Shown here one piece after another: positions 39,354-60,621 of a DNA stretch of 64,000 nucleotides. Origin of the DNA: Ignavibacteriota bacterium (GTDB taxonomy: Bacteria > Bacteroidota > Ignavibacteria > Palsa-1295); NCBI GenBank assembly GCA_963787835.1, contig CAWBEI010000002.1:1120001-1184000 (forward strand). Reading direction: 5' to 3'. The position numbers were made by a program, and so were the translations under genes. How positions within the stretch are numbered: position 1 is the stretch's first letter; each line of letters opens with the position of its first letter. The notes beneath the pieces are model-generated. The model worked only from the letters and a program-made list of their open reading frames with translations. It was not told where the DNA came from and searched no databases.

Positions 39354-39429
39354 GTAGGCGTGACCTTCAGGTCACGGCGAATTCAGACTTCGCTGTTTTA
39401 ATTCACCGTGACCTGAAGGTCACGGCTAC
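39354..39429. repeat. GTAG-type REP doublet overlapping the 3' end of the DUF971 gene
   Basis: GTAGGCGTGACCTTCAGGTCACG ... CGTGACCTGAAGGTCACGGCTAC. Confidence 0.85.
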
Positions 39430-41688: not shown

Positions 41689-43884
41689 TTAATTCTTACC
41701 AAATACATCCAGAAAATCGGTCCCAGCCCGCATATCCTGGTCATTGTTGGCGATGATCCAACCTTCGGCAAGCTGCTGATCGACGAGGCCATCGATGAAC
41801 CGGCTTGGCTTGGAAAGCACAATGCCGGATTCGCGATCGTACAAATTTGTCGGATAGGTAATGATGAGATGTTCCTTAGCGCGCGTGGCTGCAACGTACG
41901 TCAACCGGCGCTCTTCTTCCAGATCTTCCGGGTCTCGCGCGGCATGAACGGATGGGAACCTGCCATCGAGGCAGTTGGTGATGATGACGGTGTTCCATTC
42001 CAGTCCCTTTGCAGAATGGATCGTGCTTAGCGTGAGAATTTCATCATCGCGCGTGCCTTCTTCCACATCGGTCATGGAGTCCGTTGGAGGGTCGAGCGAA
42101 AGATCGGAGAGAAGGGATGTTAACGAGCGATAGCGTTCTGTGATAAGCTGAAATGTTTCAATATCCTTCTCTCGCTTTTGATGATCGTCGTATTTTTTGC
42201 GAAGGATGGGTTTGTAATATTCGATGAGATGCTCCATTTTTTCTGGCGGAGTCAGCTTCTCGTTCGAAACAAACTTTAGCGTGCTAAAAAGGTTAACTAA
42301 ATTCTGGGGCATTTTGGAAAATTCGAATGGAGGTGGCACAGTACCCTCCATTACAGCATCGCTGAATTTGCCGAATGACACACGCCCATCCCCAATATCA
42401 TTGACGATCTTCTCCGCCGTCTTCGGGCCAATGCCATCATGTAAAAGCAAAATTCGATACCAGCTTACCGCATCTTTCGGATTTTGTATCACGCGCAGCA
42501 TGGCCGTGAGATCTTTGACATGCGAAGTCTCGATAAACTTCATCCCGCCGAATTTCTGGAAGGGAATATTCGCTCGCTGTAATTCCAGTTCCAGATCGAA
42601 AGACATATATCCCGAGCGAAACAGCACCGCAATATCTTTCAGGCTCACACCCATCTCACGGTATTCAAGAATCTTCTCGACTACATAAAGCGATTGCTGC
42701 GCCTCATTCTCCGCACAAACTATTTGCGGCATTTCGCCAAGTTCGTGCCGTGAGTAGAGCGTTTTCTCATACCGCTTGACCGCCATAGAGATGACGTGAT
42801 TTGTCAGCGTGAGTATCGGCTGTGTGGAACGAAAATTCTCTTCGAGTGGAATCACCTTCGCGCCAGGGTATTGCTTCGGGAATTCGAAGATATTCTCCAC
42901 TTCCGCTCCGCGAAAACGGTAGATGGATTGAGCATCATCACCAACGACCATCACATTCGGGCCAACCACCCCCCGCCCCTCGCCTTGAAAAGTCGGGGGA
43001 GACTGCGGGATTTGTTCCCCCTCCTTAAGAAGGAGTGGGTTAGGGGGTGGTAGAGCCAGCAGCTCGACGATCCGTGCTTGCAAACGATTCACATCCTGAT
43101 ACTCATCTACCATGATATAACGGTAGCGTTGGTTCAGCGTTTGCCTAACCTTCTCATTTTGTTCGAGAAGCAGTACAAGATTGGTCAGCAGATCGTCATA
43201 GTCCATTGCGTTAGACTTGCGCTTGTATGCATGATACCCGTGTGCAAGTCGGAGAATATCCGGCAGATCTTCGATGAAATGAGGGAAATCGTTCTCGATG
43301 ACATCTTCGAGTGCGATGAGTTTGTTGACCGCGAGCGAGAACATTGCGCCGAGCGTAGTCTTGCGAGGGAACCGGCGGCGCGCGGTTGCAAGCCCCATTT
43401 GCGTTCGAAGCAAATTGATGGCATCGTGCGAATCGCTCTGATCGAGAATGGTAAAATCATTATTGAATCCGATCAGGCTGGCATAATGACGAAGCGTAAG
43501 ATTGGCAAACGAATGGAATGTACCGCCCGCGACATTCTCTGCTGAGCGGTCATGCAACAGCGCGGAAGCGCGCCGAAGCATTTCCTGCGCGGCACGGCGC
43601 GTAAAGGTAAGAAGAAGAATGGATTTCGGATCGATGCCCTGTTCAACTAATCTGGCCACACGATACGTAAGCGTTCGCGTCTTGCCCGTCCCCGCGCCTG
43701 CGATCACAAGCGCAGGACCATCCTTATGTTTTACAGCTTCGAATTGCGCGGCATTTAATTCCTGCTCGTAGCGCACCTTGAACCGCGATTCATCGACGAA
43801 CGCAGCATCGGCCGCACGCTTTAATACGAAGCGTTTCGGAGCAATGGCAGGAGTTGTTGTGCTGATGGGCACCTGTTCGGGCAT
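41689..43884 (-). CDS. UvrD/PcrA-family ATP-dependent DNA helicase
   Basis: AGAGTGKT, TFH, DEYQD, VGDDAQSIYRFRG, NFRS, TIHSAKGLEW, EERRL.YVA.TRA. Confidence 0.96.
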   Translation of the reverse strand: MPEQVPISTTTPAIAPKRFVLKRAADAAFVDESRFKVRYEQELNAAQFEAVKHKDGPALVIAGAGTGKTRTLTYRVARLVEQGIDPKSILLLTFTRRAAQEMLRRASALLHDRSAENVAGGTFHSFANLTLRHYASLIGFNNDFTILDQSDSHDAINLLRTQMGLATARRRFPRKTTLGAMFSLAVNKLIALEDVIENDFPHFIEDLPDILRLAHGYHAYKRKSNAMDYDDLLTNLVLLLEQNEKVRQTLNQRYRYIMVDEYQDVNRLQARIVELLALPPPNPLLLKEGEQIPQSPPTFQGEGRGVVGPNVMVVGDDAQSIYRFRGAEVENIFEFPKQYPGAKVIPLEENFRSTQPILTLTNHVISMAVKRYEKTLYSRHELGEMPQIVCAENEAQQSLYVVEKILEYREMGVSLKDIAVLFRSGYMSFDLELELQRANIPFQKFGGMKFIETSHVKDLTAMLRVIQNPKDAVSWYRILLLHDGIGPKTAEKIVNDIGDGRVSFGKFSDAVMEGTVPPPFEFSKMPQNLVNLFSTLKFVSNEKLTPPEKMEHLIEYYKPILRKKYDDHQKREKDIETFQLITERYRSLTSLLSDLSLDPPTDSMTDVEEGTRDDEILTLSTIHSAKGLEWNTVIITNCLDGRFPSVHAARDPEDLEEERRLTYVAATRAKEHLIITYPTNLYDRESGIVLSKPSRFIDGLVDQQLAEGWIIANNDQDMRAGTDFLDVFGKN
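42965..43051. repeat. In-frame palindromic doublet (87 bp) inside the helicase gene
   Basis: accaccccccgcccctcgcc...ggggga / tccccctccttaagaaggagtgggttagggggtggt; encodes PPPNPLLLKEGEQIPQSPPTFQGEGRGVV. Confidence 0.8.
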
Positions 43885-46352: not shown

Positions 46353-46497
46353 TGTCATCCTGAGCGGAGCAATTCGACCCGCATCGACCACGATGCAGGG
46401 AGAATTGCGTAGTCGAAGGATCTTTGGTTAATCGCACGAGATCCTTCGACTACGCAAAACTCCGCTATCGCTGCGTTTTGCTTCGCTCAGGATGACA
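46353..46497. repeat. CGTC/TGTC-type palindromic repeat element
   Basis: TGTCATCCTGAGCG...GTAGTCGAAGGATCT / AGATCCTTCGACTAC...CGCTCAGGATGACA. Confidence 0.85.
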
Positions 46498-46602: not shown

Positions 46603-47568
46603 ATGCCAAACATAGCGATCATCGGTTGCGGACTTATCGGCGAAATTCATGCAAAATGCCTTGCGGAGCTGGGCGTGCGCCCGGCATTATTTGCAGATGT
46701 CGATATTTCACGCGCTGAAAACTTAGCCTCGATTTATTCGGGTAGGTTTATGAATGATCCGACCGAAGCGATTCGAGATTCTGACATCGACACTGTCTAT
46801 ATCTGCACGTATCACGATACGCATGCGCCATTTGCCATCGAAGCAGCGAAGCAAGGCAAGCATATTTTTCTCGAGAAGCCAATGGCACTGACAGAAAAGG
46901 ATTGCCAAGCAATCGTCGAAGCCATTCAAAAAACTGGCGTGCTTTGCATGACAGGATTCAAGCTGCATTATTATTCACTTGCAAAAAAAGCAAAAGAATT
47001 GATCGGTAAACCAATAGCGCTAACAGCGCATGTTATAGATGGCCGATGGCCGGACGATCATTGGGCCAACGATCCTATTCGAGGTGGCGGGAATGTTCTT
47101 TCACAGGGTTGCCATGCGGTTGAATTATTGACCTGTCTCGCTGGGGCGAAGCCCGTTCGAATTTTTTCGGAGGGTGGGAATCTTCATCATCCGCGATTGG
47201 GAATTGTCGATACGATGACCGCGACCATTGCGTATGAGAATGATGCTGTCGCCACTCTTCTAATAGGGGATGTTGGAGGAATGCCGCACGATGGGAAATT
47301 TACGTTTCAGACAATGAACGGTGTTCAATCCATCCACCTTTATGATCGTCTCACCCATTTAAGTTATTTCGATGGTGTCAGAGAGCAAGTGTTCGCTGGA
47401 GAAGAAGATGGTTTCCTTAACGAGAATCGGGAATTTCTAGCCGCGATTGAAGCGCACCGAAAGCCGGAGACGAATGAACTCGATGGACTGCGAGCGGAGA
47501 TGGTATTGCTGCGAGGGATCGAATCAATAAGAACACATTTGCCACAATCGCTAACGGATTTGCCATGA
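46603..47568 (+). CDS. Gfo/Idh/MocA family oxidoreductase
   Basis: IGCGLIG, GKHIFLEKP, GGG......CH; start ATG 46603. Confidence 0.92.
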   Translation: MPNIAIIGCGLIGEIHAKCLAELGVRPALFADVDISRAENLASIYSGRFMNDPTEAIRDSDIDTVYICTYHDTHAPFAIEAAKQGKHIFLEKPMALTEKDCQAIVEAIQKTGVLCMTGFKLHYYSLAKKAKELIGKPIALTAHVIDGRWPDDHWANDPIRGGGNVLSQGCHAVELLTCLAGAKPVRIFSEGGNLHHPRLGIVDTMTATIAYENDAVATLLIGDVGGMPHDGKFTFQTMNGVQSIHLYDRLTHLSYFDGVREQVFAGEEDGFLNENREFLAAIEAHRKPETNELDGLRAEMVLLRGIESIRTHLPQSLTDLP

Positions 47569-50267
47569 TGACCCCTCACCCAACCTCTCCCCCAAGGGGG
47601 AGAGTAGTAGAAATGGTCGGTCAATGGCGTGATTACCGGCGTGATGACACGCGGATGGGTGTGCAATCGCTTCCACGAAAAAGTGGAAAACTCGAACAGC
47701 GGTGGTCCATTCATTTAGGCGGAAGCTTTCAGGAGGTTGAGCCAGTGCCGGATGGCTCGGGCGATATTCTCATGGCCGATGCCGGCGGAATTCAGCGCGT
47801 AACAGTTGAGGGAGAATTCCGCTGGAGAACCATGCCATTCGGTGCACACTGGATCGCGGGTGTGTTCGATCTGGATGCGGATGGTCATTTTGAAATTTTG
47901 ACAAGCAATGGGCGGGAAGTAATTATTCTCTCAGCAGAAAAAGGTGAATTTCTCTTCCGTGATACCGTAGGGCCGCCATTCTCGTATGGAACGTATGCAC
48001 CGATGTTCCAGGTGCATTCTTTTTTCAGTAAGGGAATGCAGATTCTCGTACCATGTTTCTCTAATAAGGAAGTGTTGATGTACGATTGCTCCAATGGAGC
48101 AAAAAATACTTGCATTCTTCATCGGTTGTGGATGGATGATAGTTACCACCCCTCCATTGTGATTGGAGATGTCAATAATGATGGGATCGATGAGATCGTG
48201 ATCGCAAGATTGGGTGGAGTATATGTGTTCGAGGCAAATTCCGGCAAAATGATCTCGCAGACGATCTGGAGATCCGATGAAGAACGCAGACGTAACTACG
48301 GGCATTTCGAACTTGCAGACATCAATGGCGATGGAAACCTTGAAGCGATCATCCTGAGTGATAAAGTAACGCGGCATATCGCCGTGCTTGGCAATGATGG
48401 ACGCGGGAATTTTCAGCCATTATGGGACCGGCTTATCGAGCATATTTATCCCAATGATACAACCGAGCTTCGCTACACCACTAACTCCATCCGGGATTTC
48501 GATGGCGATGGGAAGCTCGAAATAGCCGTCAGTATTTTCAATGAGCAGAAGGATGATCGATGGCATACGGAAGTTCTGCGCGCCGAAACTGGGGAACGTA
48601 TTCTCGATCTGCCGGATCAATATTTGCGCGGAGTGCAAGACGTAAATGGGGATGGCAAGCCGGAGCTTTGTCTAAGCTACGAACCAGCGCGAGGACTGCA
48701 ACAGCACTCACGACTGTCAATTTATTCTCCAAAAGATCAATCAATAATTTGGGAATGCGAGAATGCACGTTTCGCCGAGCGAGCCGTGCATCCTAATGGG
48801 AAGTATTCCGAATTCAAGCCGGATGTGTTCGCTTCGCATGAAATTTGGAGCAATGAAAAAGGCGTCTACATTCAAACTGAGGAATTCGGGCTATGCATTC
48901 TGCAAAATAGTTTATCGCTACAATCACTTGGATATAAAGCCTCCCAAAGCTATCGTGTCGCATTGGCTGAACAAGATCGCGTTCTCATTTCGGAAGCAAA
49001 TGGCGATCTCGTTAAGATCACAAAGGATGGGCCGCAGCATTTTCATTCGTGCGGATACCATCTCACAACAGAAGCACATATTTCCGCAAGACCGGGCAGC
49101 ACGGCAACGGTAGCATCATGGAAGGGCGCGCGTTATCTCGCCGTACCGGATTTTTCAGGGAATGTTCAAGTATTAAAAAATGACGGTAATGGAGTTCCGA
49201 AATCTATCCCGAACATTCGCGGTCGCTCAAGGCTGGGATATGATGGAGTCTTTCACGCTGCGAGTATTATCGAAACGAATGATGGCCCGAGGCTTGTCAT
49301 AATAGATGATGAGGGCGTGTCGCATTCCCGGCTTTCACTTTATTGTCTCGAAGGCGAGCGTGTGCGTTCCTATGAGTTTCCTGACATGCCACCAAGTGTT
49401 CTTGGGAATCGTATTGGATGTTATGATTGGCTTTACTTCCAACATTCACGGGGCGAAGCATTATTCGCAAGCTTCTATCAATCGGCTTCGATGAACAGCG
49501 AATGCTCGCTGGCGTTCTTGCTTGAGACCGGAGAAATTTTGTGGCGTAAAGATCGCGTAGGCGTTGGTGATTATGGACGTGGCGTTGGTGCATGGGGAAC
49601 AAGCGGGCTTCGCAACAATATTGCGGTTTTTTGCGCGAAGGATACACTCTGTCATCTCGATCTGGAGACTGGAGAATTCGTTGGTGAACCAAAAGTGCTC
49701 ACGGAATATACCGCCGAAGCAATGAAATCCGTAAATAATTTGCCGGAACAAACACTTTCGACAAGTTCCTCGATCGAAGATCCGTTTACGGCGTATGGAA
49801 CTCCAATAATCAATGGCGATGATGAAATAATTGGTGGATGCTTTGGAGGGTTTGGTATTCTCGACAAATCGGGATTGCCGAAATGGTGGCACAGGGCCGT
49901 ATTTGGCGATGTGCTTTATCGCTTGCCAGGAATAGGTGATATTGATGGCGATGGGAAATTAGAGTTCGGGCAAGGACACGCCGATGGAACCTTCCGAATC
50001 TATGATTACGACACGGGCGAGCTTTGTGCTTCGCTCAATCTAAAAGCCATTTGTACCGATGTTCTGACATTGAATTCCCAATTTATTGTTGGTACAAACG
50101 ACGGAAGGCTTCTCTCTATCGGTTATGACGGCAAAGAGTTTGCTATTATAGACGAATTCGAAACTGGGTCAGCGATGGGTTCGCCCATCGCAGCGGATTT
50201 CGATGGCGATGGTGTCGCGGAGATATATGTTGTGACAGGTGACGGGAATTTACTGTGCTTTATGTAG
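47565..50267 (+). CDS. FG-GAP/VCBS-repeat beta-propeller protein, no clear signal peptide
   Basis: Multiple DxDGDG/DxNGDG..E motifs; start uncertain (47565 or 47613). Confidence 0.8.
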   Translation: MMTPHPTSPPRGRVVEMVGQWRDYRRDDTRMGVQSLPRKSGKLEQRWSIHLGGSFQEVEPVPDGSGDILMADAGGIQRVTVEGEFRWRTMPFGAHWIAGVFDLDADGHFEILTSNGREVIILSAEKGEFLFRDTVGPPFSYGTYAPMFQVHSFFSKGMQILVPCFSNKEVLMYDCSNGAKNTCILHRLWMDDSYHPSIVIGDVNNDGIDEIVIARLGGVYVFEANSGKMISQTIWRSDEERRRNYGHFELADINGDGNLEAIILSDKVTRHIAVLGNDGRGNFQPLWDRLIEHIYPNDTTELRYTTNSIRDFDGDGKLEIAVSIFNEQKDDRWHTEVLRAETGERILDLPDQYLRGVQDVNGDGKPELCLSYEPARGLQQHSRLSIYSPKDQSIIWECENARFAERAVHPNGKYSEFKPDVFASHEIWSNEKGVYIQTEEFGLCILQNSLSLQSLGYKASQSYRVALAEQDRVLISEANGDLVKITKDGPQHFHSCGYHLTTEAHISARPGSTATVASWKGARYLAVPDFSGNVQVLKNDGNGVPKSIPNIRGRSRLGYDGVFHAASIIETNDGPRLVIIDDEGVSHSRLSLYCLEGERVRSYEFPDMPPSVLGNRIGCYDWLYFQHSRGEALFASFYQSASMNSECSLAFLLETGEILWRKDRVGVGDYGRGVGAWGTSGLRNNIAVFCAKDTLCHLDLETGEFVGEPKVLTEYTAEAMKSVNNLPEQTLSTSSSIEDPFTAYGTPIINGDDEIIGGCFGGFGILDKSGLPKWWHRAVFGDVLYRLPGIGDIDGDGKLEFGQGHADGTFRIYDYDTGELCASLNLKAICTDVLTLNSQFIVGTNDGRLLSIGYDGKEFAIIDEFETGSAMGSPIAADFDGDGVAEIYVVTGDGNLLCFM
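47571..47604. repeat. Solo C-rich/G-rich palindrome (same family as the UvrD insert)
   Basis: acccctcacccaacctctcccccaagggggagag. Confidence 0.7.
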
Positions 50268-50322
50268 CGCAAACTTCAGTTTGCGACCCCGCAGGCAAGT
50301 CGCAAACTAAAGTTTGCGCTAC
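50264..50322. repeat. GTAG-type REP doublet between convergent genes
   Basis: GTAGCGCAAACTTCAGTTTGCGAC...GTCGCAAACTAAAGTTTGCGCTAC. Confidence 0.9.
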
Positions 50323-50325
50323 ATT

Positions 50326-51696
50326 TCACTTTGCCAAACGAATTCCGGTGAATTGCCAGCGTGATTCGGGTGGGAAGAAATTCCGGTACGTTGCGCGGAT
50401 GTGATCCTGTGGAGTTACGCAGGATCCGCCACGAAGTACCATTTGGTTGGACATAAACTTCCCATTGTATTCTCCAAGCGCGCCTTCGGCAACTTTATAT
50501 CCGGGGTAAGGCAGGTATGCGCTGCGGGTCCACTCCCAGGCATCGCCGAACATTTGTGTAGGATGTGTGGCGCAAACTTCAGTTTGCGACTTGGCGGGGT
50601 CGCAAACTGAAGTTTGCGCTACAACAGGATGATAATTTTCATCATCCAGAAAATTGCCTTCGATGGGAAGGTCTTTTGCGGCGAATTCCCATTCGAATTC
50701 GGTAGGTAGTCTTGCACCGCTCCAGGTTGCGAATGCATCGGCTTCGAAGTGGCTGATGTGGGTAACGGGTTCTGAATCTTCGACTTTGCGGAAGCCTTGC
50801 AGGGTCATTGCCCACCATTCGTTTTCGTACAGTTCCCAATATTTTGGGGCTTGCCAGTCATCGGATAGGCAATGTGCCCACCCATCGGAGAGCCAAAGTT
50901 TGGGATTGCTATACCCGCCATCGGCAATGAAATCTTTATACTCGCCATTCGTGATGAGTCGATTCGCCAGTTCAAAGGATTCAATATATTGCCGATGGCG
51001 TGGGCCTTCGTTATCGAAAGAAAAGTCATTGACCACACCCTGGCCCCCTCCTTCTTTAGGAGGGGGGAAAGCTCCGATCTCGATGAGGCCTTCATCGAAT
51101 GAGATCCAATGCAATGGGTGAACTTCTGAGGGAATGATCTCCCGCTGGCGATAGATAGGCCGAAGAGGATTCATCGCAAGAACCGTCTTGACATCCGTGA
51201 GCATCAGCTCCTGATGTTGCTGCTCGTGATTGATTCCCATGATGAGAAGAGGAGCTATTGCATGCAGCACATCACTCGCGCCCTCCGTAATAAGCCGCTC
51301 GATGGAGCGTTCGACATGCAAGCGATAGTTCCTGACTTCCGCAAGCGTCGGGCGCGACATCAGGCCGCGCATATCGCGCGGCGTGCGCGCACCGATGGTG
51401 TTGTAGTAGGAATTAAACAGATACCCGAACTTCGGATGGAACACACGATAGCCGCGCGCGTGCGGCGTAAGAATAAACGTCTCGAAGAACCAGGCGGTGT
51501 GGCCAAGCTGCCATTTGACGGGCGAGCACTCGGTGGAGGTTTGCACCACGCAATCCTCGATGGTAAGCGGTTCGCAGATGCGATCGGTGGTTTCGAGCAT
51601 GCGGAAGTAGCGGCGCAGAAGTTCCTCGCGCTCGATCTCCAGCGCATCGAACGCGGCGCTCGGCTTTCTCCGGTGGGTGAGGGTTTCGGTTTCCAT
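50326..51696 (-). CDS. egtB: Ergothioneine biosynthesis sulfoxide synthase EgtB (DinB + FGE-sulfatase domains)
   Basis: SP.KW.LGHT.WFFE.F, FNSYY, HEQQHQEL, RLPTE.EWE, EYNGKFM, YRNFF....RWQF.G.RL. Confidence 0.9.
   Translation of the reverse strand: METETLTHRRKPSAAFDALEIEREELLRRYFRMLETTDRICEPLTIEDCVVQTSTECSPVKWQLGHTAWFFETFILTPHARGYRVFHPKFGYLFNSYYNTIGARTPRDMRGLMSRPTLAEVRNYRLHVERSIERLITEGASDVLHAIAPLLIMGINHEQQHQELMLTDVKTVLAMNPLRPIYRQREIIPSEVHPLHWISFDEGLIEIGAFPPPKEGGGQGVVNDFSFDNEGPRHRQYIESFELANRLITNGEYKDFIADGGYSNPKLWLSDGWAHCLSDDWQAPKYWELYENEWWAMTLQGFRKVEDSEPVTHISHFEADAFATWSGARLPTEFEWEFAAKDLPIEGNFLDDENYHPVVAQTSVCDPAKSQTEVCATHPTQMFGDAWEWTRSAYLPYPGYKVAEGALGEYNGKFMSNQMVLRGGSCVTPQDHIRATYRNFFPPESRWQFTGIRLAK
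50567..50622. repeat. GTAG-type REP doublet inside egtB, frame preserved
   Basis: Near-identical to 50264-50322; encodes VAQTSVCDPAKSQTEVCAT. Confidence 0.9.
51032..51068. repeat. Solo C-rich/G-rich palindrome inside egtB, frame preserved
   Basis: accacaccctggccccctccttctttaggagggggga; encodes FPPPKEGGGQGVV. Confidence 0.8.
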
Positions 51697-51773
51697 AGTA
51701 TCGTGCGGCAAATGGATTGATTTTGTTTAAAACCAAAAGGGAGGGAGATTTATGCCCGTGGGATTTCTCAACT

Positions 51774-54218
51774 TTATGCCGACACTTTCGTGGCTGTTTT
51801 TTCTTTTATCGAGAAATCAGCGTAGGTTTTTTGTGTAGCTTCACAGAGGCTTTCGAGCGTATCAGCTTTGAGCCCGATTGATGAGTCAAAGGATGTCAAA
51901 AGGTGCTCGGTTGCCAGTTCTTTACGAGTAAGAATCATTACCGGAATTACCTGGCTTGTCTTCCGAGCCTTCATTATTTTTCGTATCATTGTTCCGATAA
52001 GCCGTTTTTCTGAATCGTCGAGACTGGTTTTGAGTGTTGCGAAAAAGCAAGCCGCTTCAGGAAATTCCGACATTATAAATGCAATTTTATCAACATCCTC
52101 ATTCGTAAAATTATTAGTCGTCTTGCACTCTCCAAAAATAAGTCTTGTTTCTTCTCTCAAGTAGTTGTAGCGCATGAAGAGACCGAGATCAGCTTCTATT
52201 TCTTTCAGGGCATTCTCCTTCTTTGCTACAAAGCTCAACAAGGGAGTAGTAGACGCACCTGAATGAAGGAAGTGAGAGAAAAAGCGAAGCGTTAGCAGAA
52301 CTGTGTAGCTTCCGTGAGCCGCACCAGGCGACCGGAACGGTCCAAGCAACCTATACGACCATGGCAATGAGCCCGGCCGTTCATCCATGAGATTCAGCAA
52401 ACCCCCACAAACGGGACAAGGAACTTCCGACCCGATCTCGGTTCGCGGAAGCCACGTAGATTTTGAACAAGTTGTGCATTTGGGGGTTACACCTAGTTCA
52501 AGTATTCTTCTGTGAATCAGCTGTTTAAGAACATCGTCGGGTTCGTGAATTATTGAGTAGCCCGGAGCAATTTTGTTAAGTTGCTCGATCAACCCGGCAC
52601 GAGGAATGACACTAACTTCATATCCAAATTGGCGTTCCATTTGTGTTAACCTGGAATCAAGTTCCTTTATTTTTGAGGCCACGTTTCTGTTTTTTCGCAG
52701 CGCGATCCTTAACTCACTCCTAGGGCCTGCAAGGACACGCGTGGGTTTAACAGAATTGATGAGCATCGCAATGAGGTCATAATTTGCTAAAAGATTCAAG
52801 CCATAAATCCCGCCGAGTTGTGACAACATTGCTTCTGTTGTCTTGCCAGCATCAGAAAGTGCAATTTGCCATCCCTGTTCCTCAAGCCACTCTGTAAAAA
52901 TAGTTTTTGCATGCGGAATCATCATTCGAGCTGATTCTCCTCGCTGTCCAAGGAGCGTCAGTCCACGTTTACTAAATCGCCATTTAAATAGATCATAGCG
53001 GTCAATTGCCCTTACCATCTTCAATCCACCCTCTGGCATTACCTCAGCAAGCAACTCATCAGACCCTTCAATTCTCATTGAAATATCATTTGCAAACTGC
53101 TGTCTTGCCCATCCAAACAACTTAAACTCTGGTTGAAGTGGTGAGAACACGAAGGATTGTAAAGAAGAATGAACCCTTCGAGTTACTTCTCCACAACTCA
53201 ATGGTTTCACTTCAACGTGATCATATGGTCTAGCCCAATCGTCCCAAATTCTTGGCAGATGAGTGTGAACGACTTTAGCAGTTTCTCTGTCGTCAAACTT
53301 TTCATAGAACTCTTTGAATACTTCGAATTGAACGCTTCGCGCTTTCATTATATTGACTTCTTTTCGTCGAACCATATTGAAGAAGCTACCTACGAAGCTC
53401 GATTTTATCAACTCCTTACAGAAATCAACGACATTTGGATGCCTTGTCGATTGAATTGGGATTGGTGTAATGAACCAGCCAGCTGCTCTGAGATTCCAGT
53501 AATCAATAACATCACCGGCGTTCGATGCGTCTAACAAGAAAATTGCTCTTGTTTTATCATTCACATCAAGCAAAGGAGTAAATAGAGATGATATTCGTCG
53601 TGGAAAATATAGATCACTCGGTGCAAGTAGATCTACGTAATTCGAGAGATTGCAATCCAGTTTTTCGATTCTTAGGTCTTCTCCATAGCGAGACAACAAA
53701 GTTGATTCGATGTGAGGGGGCAAAGTTCCGAATACTGCAGAAAAAAATAAGCCGAAATTCTTCGGTATCTTAGGTATGCAAACACGTATCGGTTCACTTC
53801 TTATAAACTTAAACTCTGTATCCCGCCAATGATCAAGGATCTCAAAAAGGCCAGCACCATATTCAGGCGCACCGTAGCTCTTTACATGTTGCAATATTCC
53901 TGAATTTCTAATTACTCTCCTATTCGCGATAGTATTTACTCCTACGCTATCGAAATTAACCAAATAATCAGGGTCAAATGCATTAATAATACCATTAAAA
54001 AACTTTTTTGAAGTAGGTTTTAAAACTGGATGGCTCGAATAATTATCAGGTACTCGTTTGTAATTTGGGATTATGGGACATGCTGCACCACCCCAAAGAA
54101 ATGTTGCGGTTTCTATAGCCTCCTTCACCTGTTTATTTTTTTTGGGATCAACTATGAACCCAAACTTAAGAGGTCTTAGGGTTAAATCTATTGACGCGGT
54201 TACCAAATTTTCTTGCAT
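51774..54218 (-). CDS. Large hypothetical protein with Zn-ribbon and C-terminal PD-(D/E)xK-like motif
   Basis: Probable start ATG 54218 (814 aa); CTTC...CPVC; EIEAD...IFGECK; visibly AT-rich. Confidence 0.75.
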   Translation of the reverse strand: MQENLVTASIDLTLRPLKFGFIVDPKKNKQVKEAIETATFLWGGAACPIIPNYKRVPDNYSSHPVLKPTSKKFFNGIINAFDPDYLVNFDSVGVNTIANRRVIRNSGILQHVKSYGAPEYGAGLFEILDHWRDTEFKFIRSEPIRVCIPKIPKNFGLFFSAVFGTLPPHIESTLLSRYGEDLRIEKLDCNLSNYVDLLAPSDLYFPRRISSLFTPLLDVNDKTRAIFLLDASNAGDVIDYWNLRAAGWFITPIPIQSTRHPNVVDFCKELIKSSFVGSFFNMVRRKEVNIMKARSVQFEVFKEFYEKFDDRETAKVVHTHLPRIWDDWARPYDHVEVKPLSCGEVTRRVHSSLQSFVFSPLQPEFKLFGWARQQFANDISMRIEGSDELLAEVMPEGGLKMVRAIDRYDLFKWRFSKRGLTLLGQRGESARMMIPHAKTIFTEWLEEQGWQIALSDAGKTTEAMLSQLGGIYGLNLLANYDLIAMLINSVKPTRVLAGPRSELRIALRKNRNVASKIKELDSRLTQMERQFGYEVSVIPRAGLIEQLNKIAPGYSIIHEPDDVLKQLIHRRILELGVTPKCTTCSKSTWLPRTEIGSEVPCPVCGGLLNLMDERPGSLPWSYRLLGPFRSPGAAHGSYTVLLTLRFFSHFLHSGASTTPLLSFVAKKENALKEIEADLGLFMRYNYLREETRLIFGECKTTNNFTNEDVDKIAFIMSEFPEAACFFATLKTSLDDSEKRLIGTMIRKIMKARKTSQVIPVMILTRKELATEHLLTSFDSSIGLKADTLESLCEATQKTYADFSIKEKTATKVSA

Positions 54219-54265
54219 ACAAATCTGAAACACAATCCTGAAATGAATCATTAGCTCATCCCATG

Positions 54266-54419
54266 CCCACCAGGGGTTCCGCTTCGCTCCACACTTGGCT
54301 GTTGACATGTCACCCCCTTCGGGTTTTAGCATTCGAAGAACCACTAACCCCAGACTCACGTCCGGGGCTACAAATATGTCGTCCCTCCGGGACTGGTCGG
54401 GCTGGAAGCGCCGACCTAC
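54266..54419. repeat. Cluster of REP-like hairpins (two degenerate direct units plus a GTAG-ended hairpin)
   Basis: ...ggctgttgacatgtcacccccttcgggtt / ...ggggctacaaatatgtcgtccctccgggact / ggtcgggctggaagcgccgacctac. Confidence 0.6.
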
Positions 54420-54797
54420 GCGAAAAATAATTTCGGATTTCCCTTGCATTTGGGTTTTGGATGTGGTATATTAGGAAGTACATTAATAGGCACCAATTTC
54501 TATAAGAATAGCATTAACAATGGTTTTCATTATGAACGAGTTCTTTGGGAAAGCGGATTTTGGATATTTGTTGGAACAAATGGGCGAAATTGGCCTGGAA
54601 ACGAAGGTGGGTCGGGAACTCACAAGAAAGAAAAATGGCACCTATTTCTTGGAGAACAGCATTCTCGCATTAACTTATCCACAATTTGCATCAAAACGGA
54701 ACTAAGGAAAGAGCAAGATGCTTATTGAGCCGCCCAAAAGACCAGGATGGTCGGCCAGGTTGGTCGAAGGATGGTCGGGGCTAATCCAAAATTTATC

Positions 54798-60041: not shown

Positions 60042-60621
60042 CTGAACCTGGATTTATGGGATGAATGGGATGTTTGAGATAAAGCTATGACTGAGAAAGA
60101 TCTCCCTGACTCCGAGATCACTCGAAAAATTATTGGATGCGCTATGAAAGTGCATACCGAATTAGGCAACGGGTTTCAGGAATTTATTTATCAGGCTGGT
60201 TTGGAAATCGAATTTCGAGATCAAGGGATAGAGTACGAGAGAGAGTTTGAAATGCCTATTTATTACAAAGCTCAATTATTAGGCACTCGACGCATAGATT
60301 TTTTAGTTAATCGAAATATCTCCGTTGAACTCAAAGCGATTATTGAGCTCGGTGACGTGCATATTGCCCAAGCTTTGAATTATCTTGAAGCATACAATAT
60401 TCAGACCGGATTACTCATCAATTTTGGTTCAAAACGCCTTACATTTCACCGATTGCGCAACAAAAAGTATCGGCCCACCATTTGAACTGGGATGTTTGGG
60501 ATGAATGGGATGTTTAGTATAAGGTGGATAGGATAATCACACTCTGAGGAATTAAACTGCCTCATCGAAAGCATAGACCATTATCCCAAACATCCCATTC
60601 ATCCCATAAATCCAGGTTCAG
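60042..60621. mobile_element. Inverted-repeat-bounded cassette carrying a GxxExxY gene (putative mobile/intervening element)
   Basis: 41-bp inverted repeats 60042-60082 and 60581-60621 (40/41 match); third degenerate direct copy 60483-60522. Confidence 0.6.
60087..60485 (+). CDS. GxxExxY protein (PD-(D/E)xK nuclease superfamily)
   Basis: GFQEFIY motif, RIDFLV....VELKA, Q..NYL, GLLINFG. Confidence 0.92.
   Translation: MTEKDLPDSEITRKIIGCAMKVHTELGNGFQEFIYQAGLEIEFRDQGIEYEREFEMPIYYKAQLLGTRRIDFLVNRNISVELKAIIELGDVHIAQALNYLEAYNIQTGLLINFGSKRLTFHRLRNKKYRPTI

What the first reader, a model, noticed from the sequence alone, without database searches (positions are those of the whole stretch)
50567..51068. 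egtB carries two in-frame palindromic inserts from two unrelated repeat families
Seen: a GTAG doublet (50567-50622, VAQTSVCDPAKSQTEVCAT), near-identical to the intergenic copy at 50264, and a C/G-rich solo (51032-51068, FPPPKEGGGQGVV), closely matching the UvrD insert arm. The ORF and the HEQQH metal motif remain intact. Inference: recent, repeated invasion of permissive loops of the FGE-like domain; the first insert adds two Cys to a sulfur-transfer enzyme. Shows that more than one repeat family here generates new protein sequence.
Basis: partly seen in the sequence, partly recalled or inferred. Interest (0 to 1): 0.7.

Follow-up and report, generated by a model that had tools for sequence, protein, structure and literature searches.

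The report
Repeat-refilled loops in ergothioneine enzyme
Two surface loops of an ergothioneine-making enzyme in this uncultured bacterium are encoded by two unrelated selfish DNA hairpin repeats, and comparison with sister species shows that such loops hold different repeats in different species, so they are likely old landing slots that get refilled rather than fresh insertions with a new function.

Summary
Confirmed. egtB (type II-like, TIGR03440 above cut-off) carries two in-frame inserts absent from most orthologs: a GTAG REP doublet (family A, whose RAYT gene is in the genome) and a BoxC-like hairpin-plus-G-tract repeat (family B, which brackets a DUF559 nuclease gene). Both are common inside genes here (9 of 32 and 22 of 41 loci). 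'Recent' is not supported: 5 and 6 of 13 same-genus egtB genes carry them, yet silent sites inside shared inserts barely change (2 of 29 versus 12.7 expected), and sub-variants swap at one site. The matching loops of dxs, hutH, gatA and uvrD hold three or more unrelated repeat types across sister species, and EgtB loop A holds BoxC-like doublets in two other phyla. Best reading: a few tolerant loops act as slots that repeats occupy, overwrite and refresh; the two cysteines are a by-product of the only open frame. Intragenic REPs are known (Rickettsia RPEs; Di Nocera 2013); slot refilling and the DUF559 link were not in the papers I searched, but this scan noted both before on other DNA.

The parts
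50326..51696 (-). egtB, sulfoxide synthase of ergothioneine synthesis (DinB-like + FGE-like domains), 456 aa; His66, His157, His161 and the NSYY loop (95-98) are present
   Evidence: model matches 6o6l_D at Z 44.0, rmsd 2.3 A over 393 residues
50566..50623 (-). Insert A: head-to-head GTAG REP doublet (REPIN-like), residues 359-377 including Cys365 and Cys375; net about +11 to +13 aa over the shortest orthologous loops
   Evidence: low-confidence segment 362-375 in the model
51032..51068 (-). Insert B: solo family-B unit (CCCCTCC-loop-GGAGGGG-loop-G/T tract, BoxC/PIT-like geometry), residues 211-222; net +11 aa
   Evidence: low-confidence segment 211-231 between two strands
50263..50323 (+). 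Intergenic family-A doublet between two converging genes, inverted relative to insert A; its spacer is the closest match to that of insert A among all doublets; its GTAG supplies the TAG stop (50265-50267) of the FG-GAP gene 47565-50267
42965..43051 (-). Two family-B-type units in frame in the uvrD/pcrA-like helicase gene; the same loop is empty in 7 of 11 orthologs and holds other hairpins in G005, G012 and G011

Best explanation
The two inserts are copies of two unrelated, non-coding-derived hairpin repeats read in frame in surface loops of an EgtB that is likely still active, and these loops likely behave as long-lived slots that repeats enter, overwrite and refresh. Shown: family A is a GTAG REP with a RAYT gene flanked by it; family B flanks DUF559 nuclease genes; both inserts predate the split from sister species; the same loops of several enzymes hold unrelated repeats in different species; silent sites inside shared inserts are far more conserved than the rest of the gene. 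Inferred: (1) RAYT (for A) and probably the DUF559 nuclease (for B) cut and move or copy their hairpins; (2) inside genes only events that keep the frame and fall in a tolerant loop survive, which explains the few sites and the single peptide frame of A; (3) once a hairpin is in a loop it is re-cut, re-inserted into or gene-converted by other copies, sometimes of another family, which keeps it looking new; (4) the peptide, cysteines included, is close to neutral.
For: Cognate enzymes: 1 of 10 Y1_Tnp matches in G000 (HVH, FWQ, YILMNP motifs) has family A 100 and 269 nt from the match on either side, and a homolog in G005 is flanked the same way; 8 of 27 DUF559 loci of the genus have family B on both sides within 250 nt, 22 of 27 have B or a related C-rich/G-rich hairpin on at least one side. 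Age: shared junction with G006; insert B in 6 and insert A in 5 of 13 same-genus egtB genes. Refreshing: G000 versus G006, 2 of 19 four-fold sites differ inside the egtB arms versus 81 of 196 outside (P 0.004); hutH 0 of 10 versus 125 of 260 (P 0.0014); pooled 2 of 29, 12.7 expected. Overwriting: loop B holds three sub-variants, and the variant shared by G002 and G009 is not a clade (AU p 0.0024) because G002 groups with G000+G006 at 100/97; A carriers are not a clade (AU p 0.0004) and show three junction types, G002 holding a sub-variant that exists elsewhere in G000. Slots: dxs loop holds family A (G000), heptamer arrays (G006, G002, G003, G001), BoxC-type doublets (G009, G004) and another GTAG doublet (G008), and is short in G010, G007, G012, G013; gatA and hutH show the same. 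Filter: 7 of 7 intragenic A doublets have a spacer length of 3n+1 versus 2 of 8 intergenic ones (Fisher P 0.007); loop A holds BoxC-like doublets in L220 (Chthoniobacterales) and L293 (Stellaceae). Enzyme intact: 41 of 437 residues differ from G006 against 41% of silent sites; egtD is in the genome above cut-off.
Against: No movement, conversion or cleavage was observed; the link of B to DUF559 is flanking only, and one B unit also lies 264 nt from an unrelated Y1 transposase gene. A single origin of insert B is not rejected (AU p 0.42), so for loop B only sub-variant exchange, not exchange between families, is shown. Low silent divergence could also come from selection on the DNA or mRNA hairpin, or from arm-to-arm correction. 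In pairs that include G013 or G002 the inserts do decay (8 of 19 and 6 of 18 residues differ), so refreshing is not universal. Only 4 of the 27 other insert-bearing genes were compared across species, chosen because G000 has an insert there; repeat classes of decayed inserts were assigned partly by eye, and several have 0 BLAST hits in G000. The place of G013 and G009 differs between gene trees, so gene exchange between species may explain some shared junctions.
Confidence: 0.65

Rival explanations
1. Pure filter: repeats land at random, only those in a handful of tolerant loops survive, in-frame deletions empty the loop again, and each occupant is an independent arrival with no targeting of resident hairpins and no refreshing.
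For: Loop A is naturally length-variable (23-43 aa in 144 of 150 distant EgtBs) and was filled independently in two other phyla; both families are depleted in genes relative to 88% coding DNA; spacer lengths fit a frame filter.
Against: It does not explain 2 of 29 silent differences in inserts that share a junction, sub-variant exchange at loop B, partial extra arms beside the doublets in dxs and hutH, or the spacer shared with the neighbouring intergenic copy. Loop B is not a variable loop elsewhere (17 aa in 142 of 159).
Confidence: 0.22
2. Co-option: the inserted peptides (for instance the two cysteines) or the mRNA hairpins have been kept because they tune EgtB activity, assembly or translation.
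For: Both inserts are kept across several species, and insert B in all five members of the clade; silent-site conservation would fit a selected RNA hairpin.
Against: Close relatives lack insert A (G009, G014) or change its first Cys (G002); the same peptides occur in unrelated enzymes; the model gives both loops low confidence; for the Rickettsia gmk insert the reported effect was neutral or slightly harmful (PMC2229807, passages).
Confidence: 0.08
3. Recent one-off insertions in this lineage, insert A hopping from the adjacent intergenic doublet.
For: The two doublets have the most similar spacers of 245 oriented comparisons; arms are 0-1 mismatches from consensus.
Against: G006 has both inserts at the same junctions at 41% silent divergence, and its intragenic spacer resembles the intergenic spacer of G000, which points to later copying between two older copies.
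Confidence: 0.04
4. Assembly artefact that duplicated the intergenic repeat into the gene.
For: No listed contig of the four runs laid spans insert A.
Against: Four other independently assembled genomes carry family A in the same loop in frame; the two copies differ in spacer and at three arm positions; insert B is spanned by a contig with no difference.
Confidence: 0.01

Closest known systems
GTAG REP / REPIN with RAYT (REPtron); Bertels and Rainey 2011 PMC3116915 (passages), Quentin et al. 2018 PMC6006769 (passages), Corneloup et al. 2021 PMC8266576 (abstract)
   Same: Insert A is an inverted doublet of a GTAG-footed hairpin, dispersed at 32 loci, with a class-2-type Y1 HUH gene flanked by it. 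[quoted passage not shown]
   Different: 9 of 32 loci are translated inside genes; the same loop is shared with unrelated repeat types across species.
Intragenic GTAG/CGTC REPs; Di Nocera et al. 2013 PMC3733652 (section 15, first part of section 17, passages)
   Same: In-frame dimers encoding 20-30 aa, some ORFs hit twice, GTAG supplying a TAG stop, different REPs at about the same site of recB in two Xanthomonas species.
   Different: Here the two inserts of one gene come from unrelated families, and single loops were followed over 12-15 species and hold three or more repeat types; the parts I read do not describe this or silent-site conservation. Its supplementary table of intragenic REPs was not read.
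Rickettsia palindromic elements (RPE); as summarised in PMC2229807 and PMC10969869 (passages; the original papers were not read)
   Same: A large share of copies in frame in conserved housekeeping genes; enzyme reported active with the insert (gmk).
   Different: RPEs are 105-150 bp with no known mobilising enzyme in the passages read; these units are 25-60 bp, each family with a flanked nuclease gene.
BoxC / PIT / TMECO intrastrand-triplex repeats; Holder et al. 2015 PMC4666352 (passages)
   Same: Insert B has the same three-tract layout: pyrimidine tract, complementary purine tract, mirror G/T tract; 26 of 41 loci fit it, 59 bins in the genome versus 1 in the reversed control.
   Different: It does not match the strict TMECO consensus; TMECO is described as always intergenic and not linked to mobile elements, whereas 22 of 41 family-B loci are in frame in genes and the family flanks DUF559 genes.
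Type II EgtB of Chloracidobacterium thermophilum (PDB 6o6l, 6qki, 8qf6); PMC13645936 (passages)
   Same: Best sequence and fold match; three His and the NSYY loop align.
   Different: Two repeat-encoded loop extensions; activity and oligomer state untested here.

Membership tests
GTAG REP / REPIN (insert A) | Short hairpin with a GTAG (or GTGG) foot | tested here: met
   consensus, folding
GTAG REP / REPIN (insert A) | Dispersed multi-copy, as singlets and inverted doublets | tested here: met
   47 units at 32 loci, 0 in reversed genome
GTAG REP / REPIN (insert A) | RAYT gene (HUH, Y---NP) flanked by the same repeat | tested here: met
   G000:C2:1501756-1502055 and G005:C31
GTAG REP / REPIN (insert A) | Mostly extragenic | tested here: met
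   23 of 32 loci not inside a long coding frame by my rule
GTAG REP / REPIN (insert A) | Cleaved as single strand by its RAYT | not testable with these tools
   needs an in vitro assay
BoxC / PIT / TMECO (insert B) | Three-tract geometry able to form an intrastrand purine-motif triplex | tested here: met
   7 triads with 1 mismatch in the egtB copy; 26 of 41 loci; geometry only, no folding experiment
BoxC / PIT / TMECO (insert B) | Strict TMECO consensus of PMC4666352 | tested here: not met
   1 match in the genome; the egtB copy lacks the CCCTCNCCC tract
BoxC / PIT / TMECO (insert B) | Always intergenic, no link to mobile elements | tested here: not met
   22 of 41 loci in frame in genes; flanks DUF559 genes
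GTAG or CGTC REP (insert B) | GTAG or CGTC tag at one end | tested here: not met
   family consensus and 41 loci
Rickettsia palindromic element | 105-150 bp stem-loop with one conserved peptide | tested here: not met
   units of 25-60 bp; family B is read in several frames on both strands; works like an RPE, is not one
EgtB (TIGR03440) | Score above the curated cut-off | tested here: met
   546 versus 360 bits
EgtB (TIGR03440) | Three-His iron site, and NSYY loop as in the type II enzyme | tested here: met
   aligned with 6qki/6o6l, invariant or nearly so in 20 homologs; the role of the NSYY tyrosines is recalled, not from a call
EgtB (TIGR03440) | Sulfoxide synthase activity | not testable with these tools
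   needs purified enzyme

The most novel reading that the evidence does not exclude
Tolerant protein loops in this genus are persistent 'repeat slots': a resident hairpin is itself the target for nuclease-driven replacement by its own or an unrelated repeat family (RAYT-linked REPs, DUF559-linked BoxC-like repeats, heptamer arrays), so loop peptides of core enzymes are rewritten wholesale from selfish DNA faster than silent sites change; and DUF559 nucleases are the missing mobilisers of BoxC/PIT-type repeats.
Probability: 0.4. Interest if true: 0.72.

Novelty: new variant of a known kind. Interest (0 to 1): 0.5.

Why it matters
Repeats translated inside enzymes are known, but they are usually read as rare frozen accidents. 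Here one can follow single loops across 12-15 species and see occupants change family while shared occupants stay closer to the family consensus than silent sites allow. That gives a natural, datable series for two open questions: how REP-type elements actually move or homogenise in vivo, and what maintains BoxC/PIT repeats. It also warns that near-identity to an intergenic copy does not date an insertion, and it marks natural permissive sites in EgtB, an enzyme of biotechnological interest.

Tried and rejected
Rfam scan of four loci (RAYT, two DUF559, egtB): 10 matches, all below gathering scores, miRNA-like hairpin noise. Sequencing runs: no RNA holder listed; the four runs laid are shallow contigs of one study, possibly the source campaign, so they neither test expression nor empty-site polymorphism; the one joint 50290-50598 comes from another family-A locus, as its middle letters match the doublet at C3:92025. 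Intragenic copies are not more decayed than intergenic ones by profile score (A 29.3 versus 28.5 bits, B 31.6 versus 30.2), so score cannot date them. Promoter and terminator scan of 50150-51900: 1 and 3 sites, as in shuffles. First regex measure of loop lengths misparsed three rows (L196, L180, L277) and was replaced by an alignment-based one. L214, the best named hit (labelled Candidatus Kapaibacterium sp.), has the same loop sequences as G013 and was not counted as independent. The idea that the 'empty' loop A of G001, G012, G014 and G009 holds a decayed nine-base array stays tentative: the strict pattern matched 5 times in 4 of 5 genomes (control 0), once in the G001 loop itself, with 0 BLAST hits in G000. 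Distances from the inserts to the iron site or to a tetramer interface could not be measured: no coordinates were returned, and the structure paper PMC7133768 is not held. Paper searches for a DUF559-repeat link, for in-frame REPs, same-site or replaced inserts and RPE gave no paper describing loop refilling by unrelated families or DUF559 as partner; the library lacks most subscription papers and supplements were not read.

Full report
Observation. The ORF 50326-51696 on the minus strand is unbroken and is an EgtB: TIGR03440 546 bits against a cut-off of 360, best solved relative the type II enzyme of Chloracidobacterium thermophilum (predicted model versus 6o6l_D Z 44.0, rmsd 2.3 A, 393 residues). 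His66, His157, His161 and the NSYY loop are conserved and egtD lies elsewhere in the genome above cut-off. Insert A (50566-50623) is an inverted doublet of a GTAG-footed hairpin, 93% like the doublet at 50263-50323 over 57 nt. Insert B (51032-51068) is a 9-bp hairpin followed by a G/T tract. Between fixed anchors loop B is 28 aa here and 17 aa in 142 of 159 distant EgtBs, loop A 41 aa here and a median 29 in 150 (160 loci, the best 80 of 600 candidates in each of two collections). Both inserts fall in low-confidence segments of the model (211-231 and 362-375). One contig of another run spans B without a difference; none listed spans A. The best named hit is labelled Candidatus Kapaibacterium sp., which places the organism among Kapabacteria-like bacteria.

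The two families. Iterated profiles find 47 family-A units at 32 loci and 52 family-B units at 41 loci, none in the reversed genome. By a rule of my own (long open frame with coding-like flanks) 9 A loci and 22 B loci lie in frame in genes, 28 genes in all: murB, dxs, mnmE, mtnN, tal-pgi, hutH (twice), a monooxygenase and egtB for A; xerC, ppx (twice), tsaD, nusB, coaBC, rarA, accC, gatA, uvrD, egtB and others for B, 20 of the 21 B frames having a family hit. Both shares are well below the 88% coding fraction. One of 10 Y1 transposase matches, with RAYT-type motifs, is flanked on both sides by A, as is a homolog in G005. One of 2 DUF559 genes is flanked on both sides by B doublets; over the genus 8 of 27 DUF559 loci have B on both sides and 22 of 27 have B or a related hairpin on at least one side. 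B has the three-tract layout of BoxC/PIT repeats (26 of 41 loci; 59 genome bins against 1 in the control) but not the strict TMECO consensus. The A pattern occurs in 11 of 61 genomes searched, all in this genus; the B pattern in 22 of 61, all in this family. The genome holds dozens of further dispersed hairpin families, most of them almost wholly intergenic.

Age and turnover. Of 13 same-genus egtB genes (two frameshifted), 6 carry B and 5 carry A. G006 has both at the same junctions although 81 of 196 four-fold silent sites of egtB differ; inside the arms only 2 of 19 differ (P 0.004), and in a junction-sharing hutH insert 0 of 10 against 125 of 260; pooled 2 of 29 against 12.7 expected. Residue differences outside the inserts are 41 of 437, so the protein has stayed under purifying selection with both inserts in place. 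Against a general rule, pairs with G013 or G002 show decay (8 of 19 and 6 of 18 residues); in G013 (85% complete) the egtB insert is the only family-A match left. A carriers are rejected as one clade (AU p 0.0004) and show three junction types; relatives without A keep residues that the G005/G013 insert removed, which favours separate gains. B carriers may be one clade (p 0.42), but loop B holds three sub-variants that all exist as free copies, and the pair sharing one of them (G002, G009) is rejected as a clade (p 0.0024), so the occupant changed in place. Insert A and the neighbouring intergenic doublet have the most similar spacers of 245 oriented comparisons, which points to local copying between two older copies. 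All 7 intragenic A doublets have spacers of 3n+1 bases against 2 of 8 intergenic ones (P 0.007); with that length only the VAQT/SQT frame is free of stops, so the cysteines come with the frame.

Slots. I compared 4 of the other 27 insert-bearing genes across the genus. Insertions of 6 aa or more fall in one to three sites per gene, four in egtB with 13 of 15 in the two loops. The dxs loop holds family A in G000, heptamer arrays in G006, G002, G003 and G001, BoxC-type doublets in G009 and G004, another GTAG doublet in G008, and is short in G010, G007, G012 and G013. The gatA loop holds B (G000, G010, decayed in G001), heptamer arrays (G006, G014, G009) or another GTAG family (G005). The second hutH loop holds A (G000, G006), a heptamer array (G002), a BoxC-type unit (G014) or B-like units in two frames (G009, G005, G013, G012), and is short in four genomes. 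At the first hutH site G006 and G009 share one insert while G000 has A and G014 another GTAG doublet. EgtB loop A itself holds BoxC-like doublets in a Chthoniobacterales and a Stellaceae genome (L220, L293). Well-preserved occupants match multi-copy families of G000 by BLAST, decayed ones were classed by eye. Kin are not independent and G013 and G009 shift between gene trees, so event counts are lower bounds with some uncertainty from gene exchange.

Mechanism. Most likely (0.65): the repeats are moved or copied by their flanked nucleases (RAYT for A by established analogy; DUF559 for B, inferred from flanking only); the reading frame and the fold let through only events in a few tolerant loops; resident hairpins are then re-cut, overwritten or converted, which keeps them consensus-like and sometimes swaps the family; the peptides are nearly neutral. 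A pure filter without refreshing (0.22) explains the few sites but not the silent-site result. Co-option (0.08), recent one-off insertion (0.04) and misassembly (0.01) fit worse.

Comparison with what is known. In-frame repeats in conserved genes are described for Rickettsia RPEs (PMC2229807, PMC10969869, passages) and for GTAG/CGTC REPs, including dimers, genes hit twice and different REPs at about the same recB site (PMC3733652, section 15, first part of section 17); PMC3184786 (section 15) reviews such fusions. REPIN-RAYT linkage and insertion next to existing REPINs are in PMC3116915 and PMC6006769 (passages); PMC8266576 (abstract) says their spread is poorly understood. BoxC/TMECO is described as intergenic and unlinked to mobile elements (PMC4666352, passages). 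Heptamer arrays are in PMC4679880 (abstract). PMC3337134 (passages) added nothing. My searches found no paper on loops refilled by unrelated families or on DUF559 as partner of these repeats; most subscription papers and all supplements were outside what I read. This scan has noted both themes on other DNA and a REPIN in pheS of this genome.

Verdict. The finding is real. As two intragenic repeats it is a new instance of a known habit; as a documented series of refilled, refreshed loops with two different partner nucleases it is a new variant of a known kind. Interest 0.5.

Noticed in passing
window 50265-50267: The GTAG of the intergenic doublet supplies the TAG stop of the 900-aa FG-GAP gene; in G006 the same doublet supplies the stop of egtB instead.
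   Followed up: partly
window 51774-54449 (-): An 891-codon frame upstream of egtB with no Pfam match, ending in a Cys-x2-Cys pair of motifs and a nuclease-like tail by eye; it lies between egtB and the rplM-rpsI-rpsB-tsf cluster and looks acquired.
   Followed up: no
L117 / L129 (G009:C24:26505-26822): A DUF559 domain bracketed by family-B units runs in frame into an RNase H-like sequence (by eye); other DUF559 matches sit in frames of 438-894 aa.
   Followed up: partly
L126, L127 (G011:C73, G012:C71): A Cas1-like frame (by eye) carries a family-B doublet in frame and is followed by a B-flanked DUF559 gene.
   Followed up: no
G000:C2:404186, 1484658, 1514328, 1543527, 1799227; C4:215700: Family-B units carry an extra small hairpin module in either loop, and a similar module sits in a family-A sub-variant (G002 egtB; 3 loci in G000), so modules seem to be shared between families.
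   Followed up: partly
G000:C2:1492735-1493046: A second RAYT-like gene flanked by arrays of another GTAG family, beside hutI and hutH; window 39354-39429 holds a doublet of that family.
   Followed up: no
window 60042-60082, 60483-60522, 60581-60621; 46399-46463: Further hairpin repeats of other families (nine-base arrays in inverted pairs; a 25-bp inverted pair); the genome has about 50 dispersed k-mer groups of 5 or more loci.
   Followed up: partly
L027 (G014), L031 (G001): egtB is split by frameshifts in these two assemblies; assembly error or decay not resolved.
   Followed up: no
L313 and L323 (G009): Two gatA copies, one nearly matching G008 at the loop; with a second partial rpoB this fits the 7% contamination listed for G009.
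   Followed up: no
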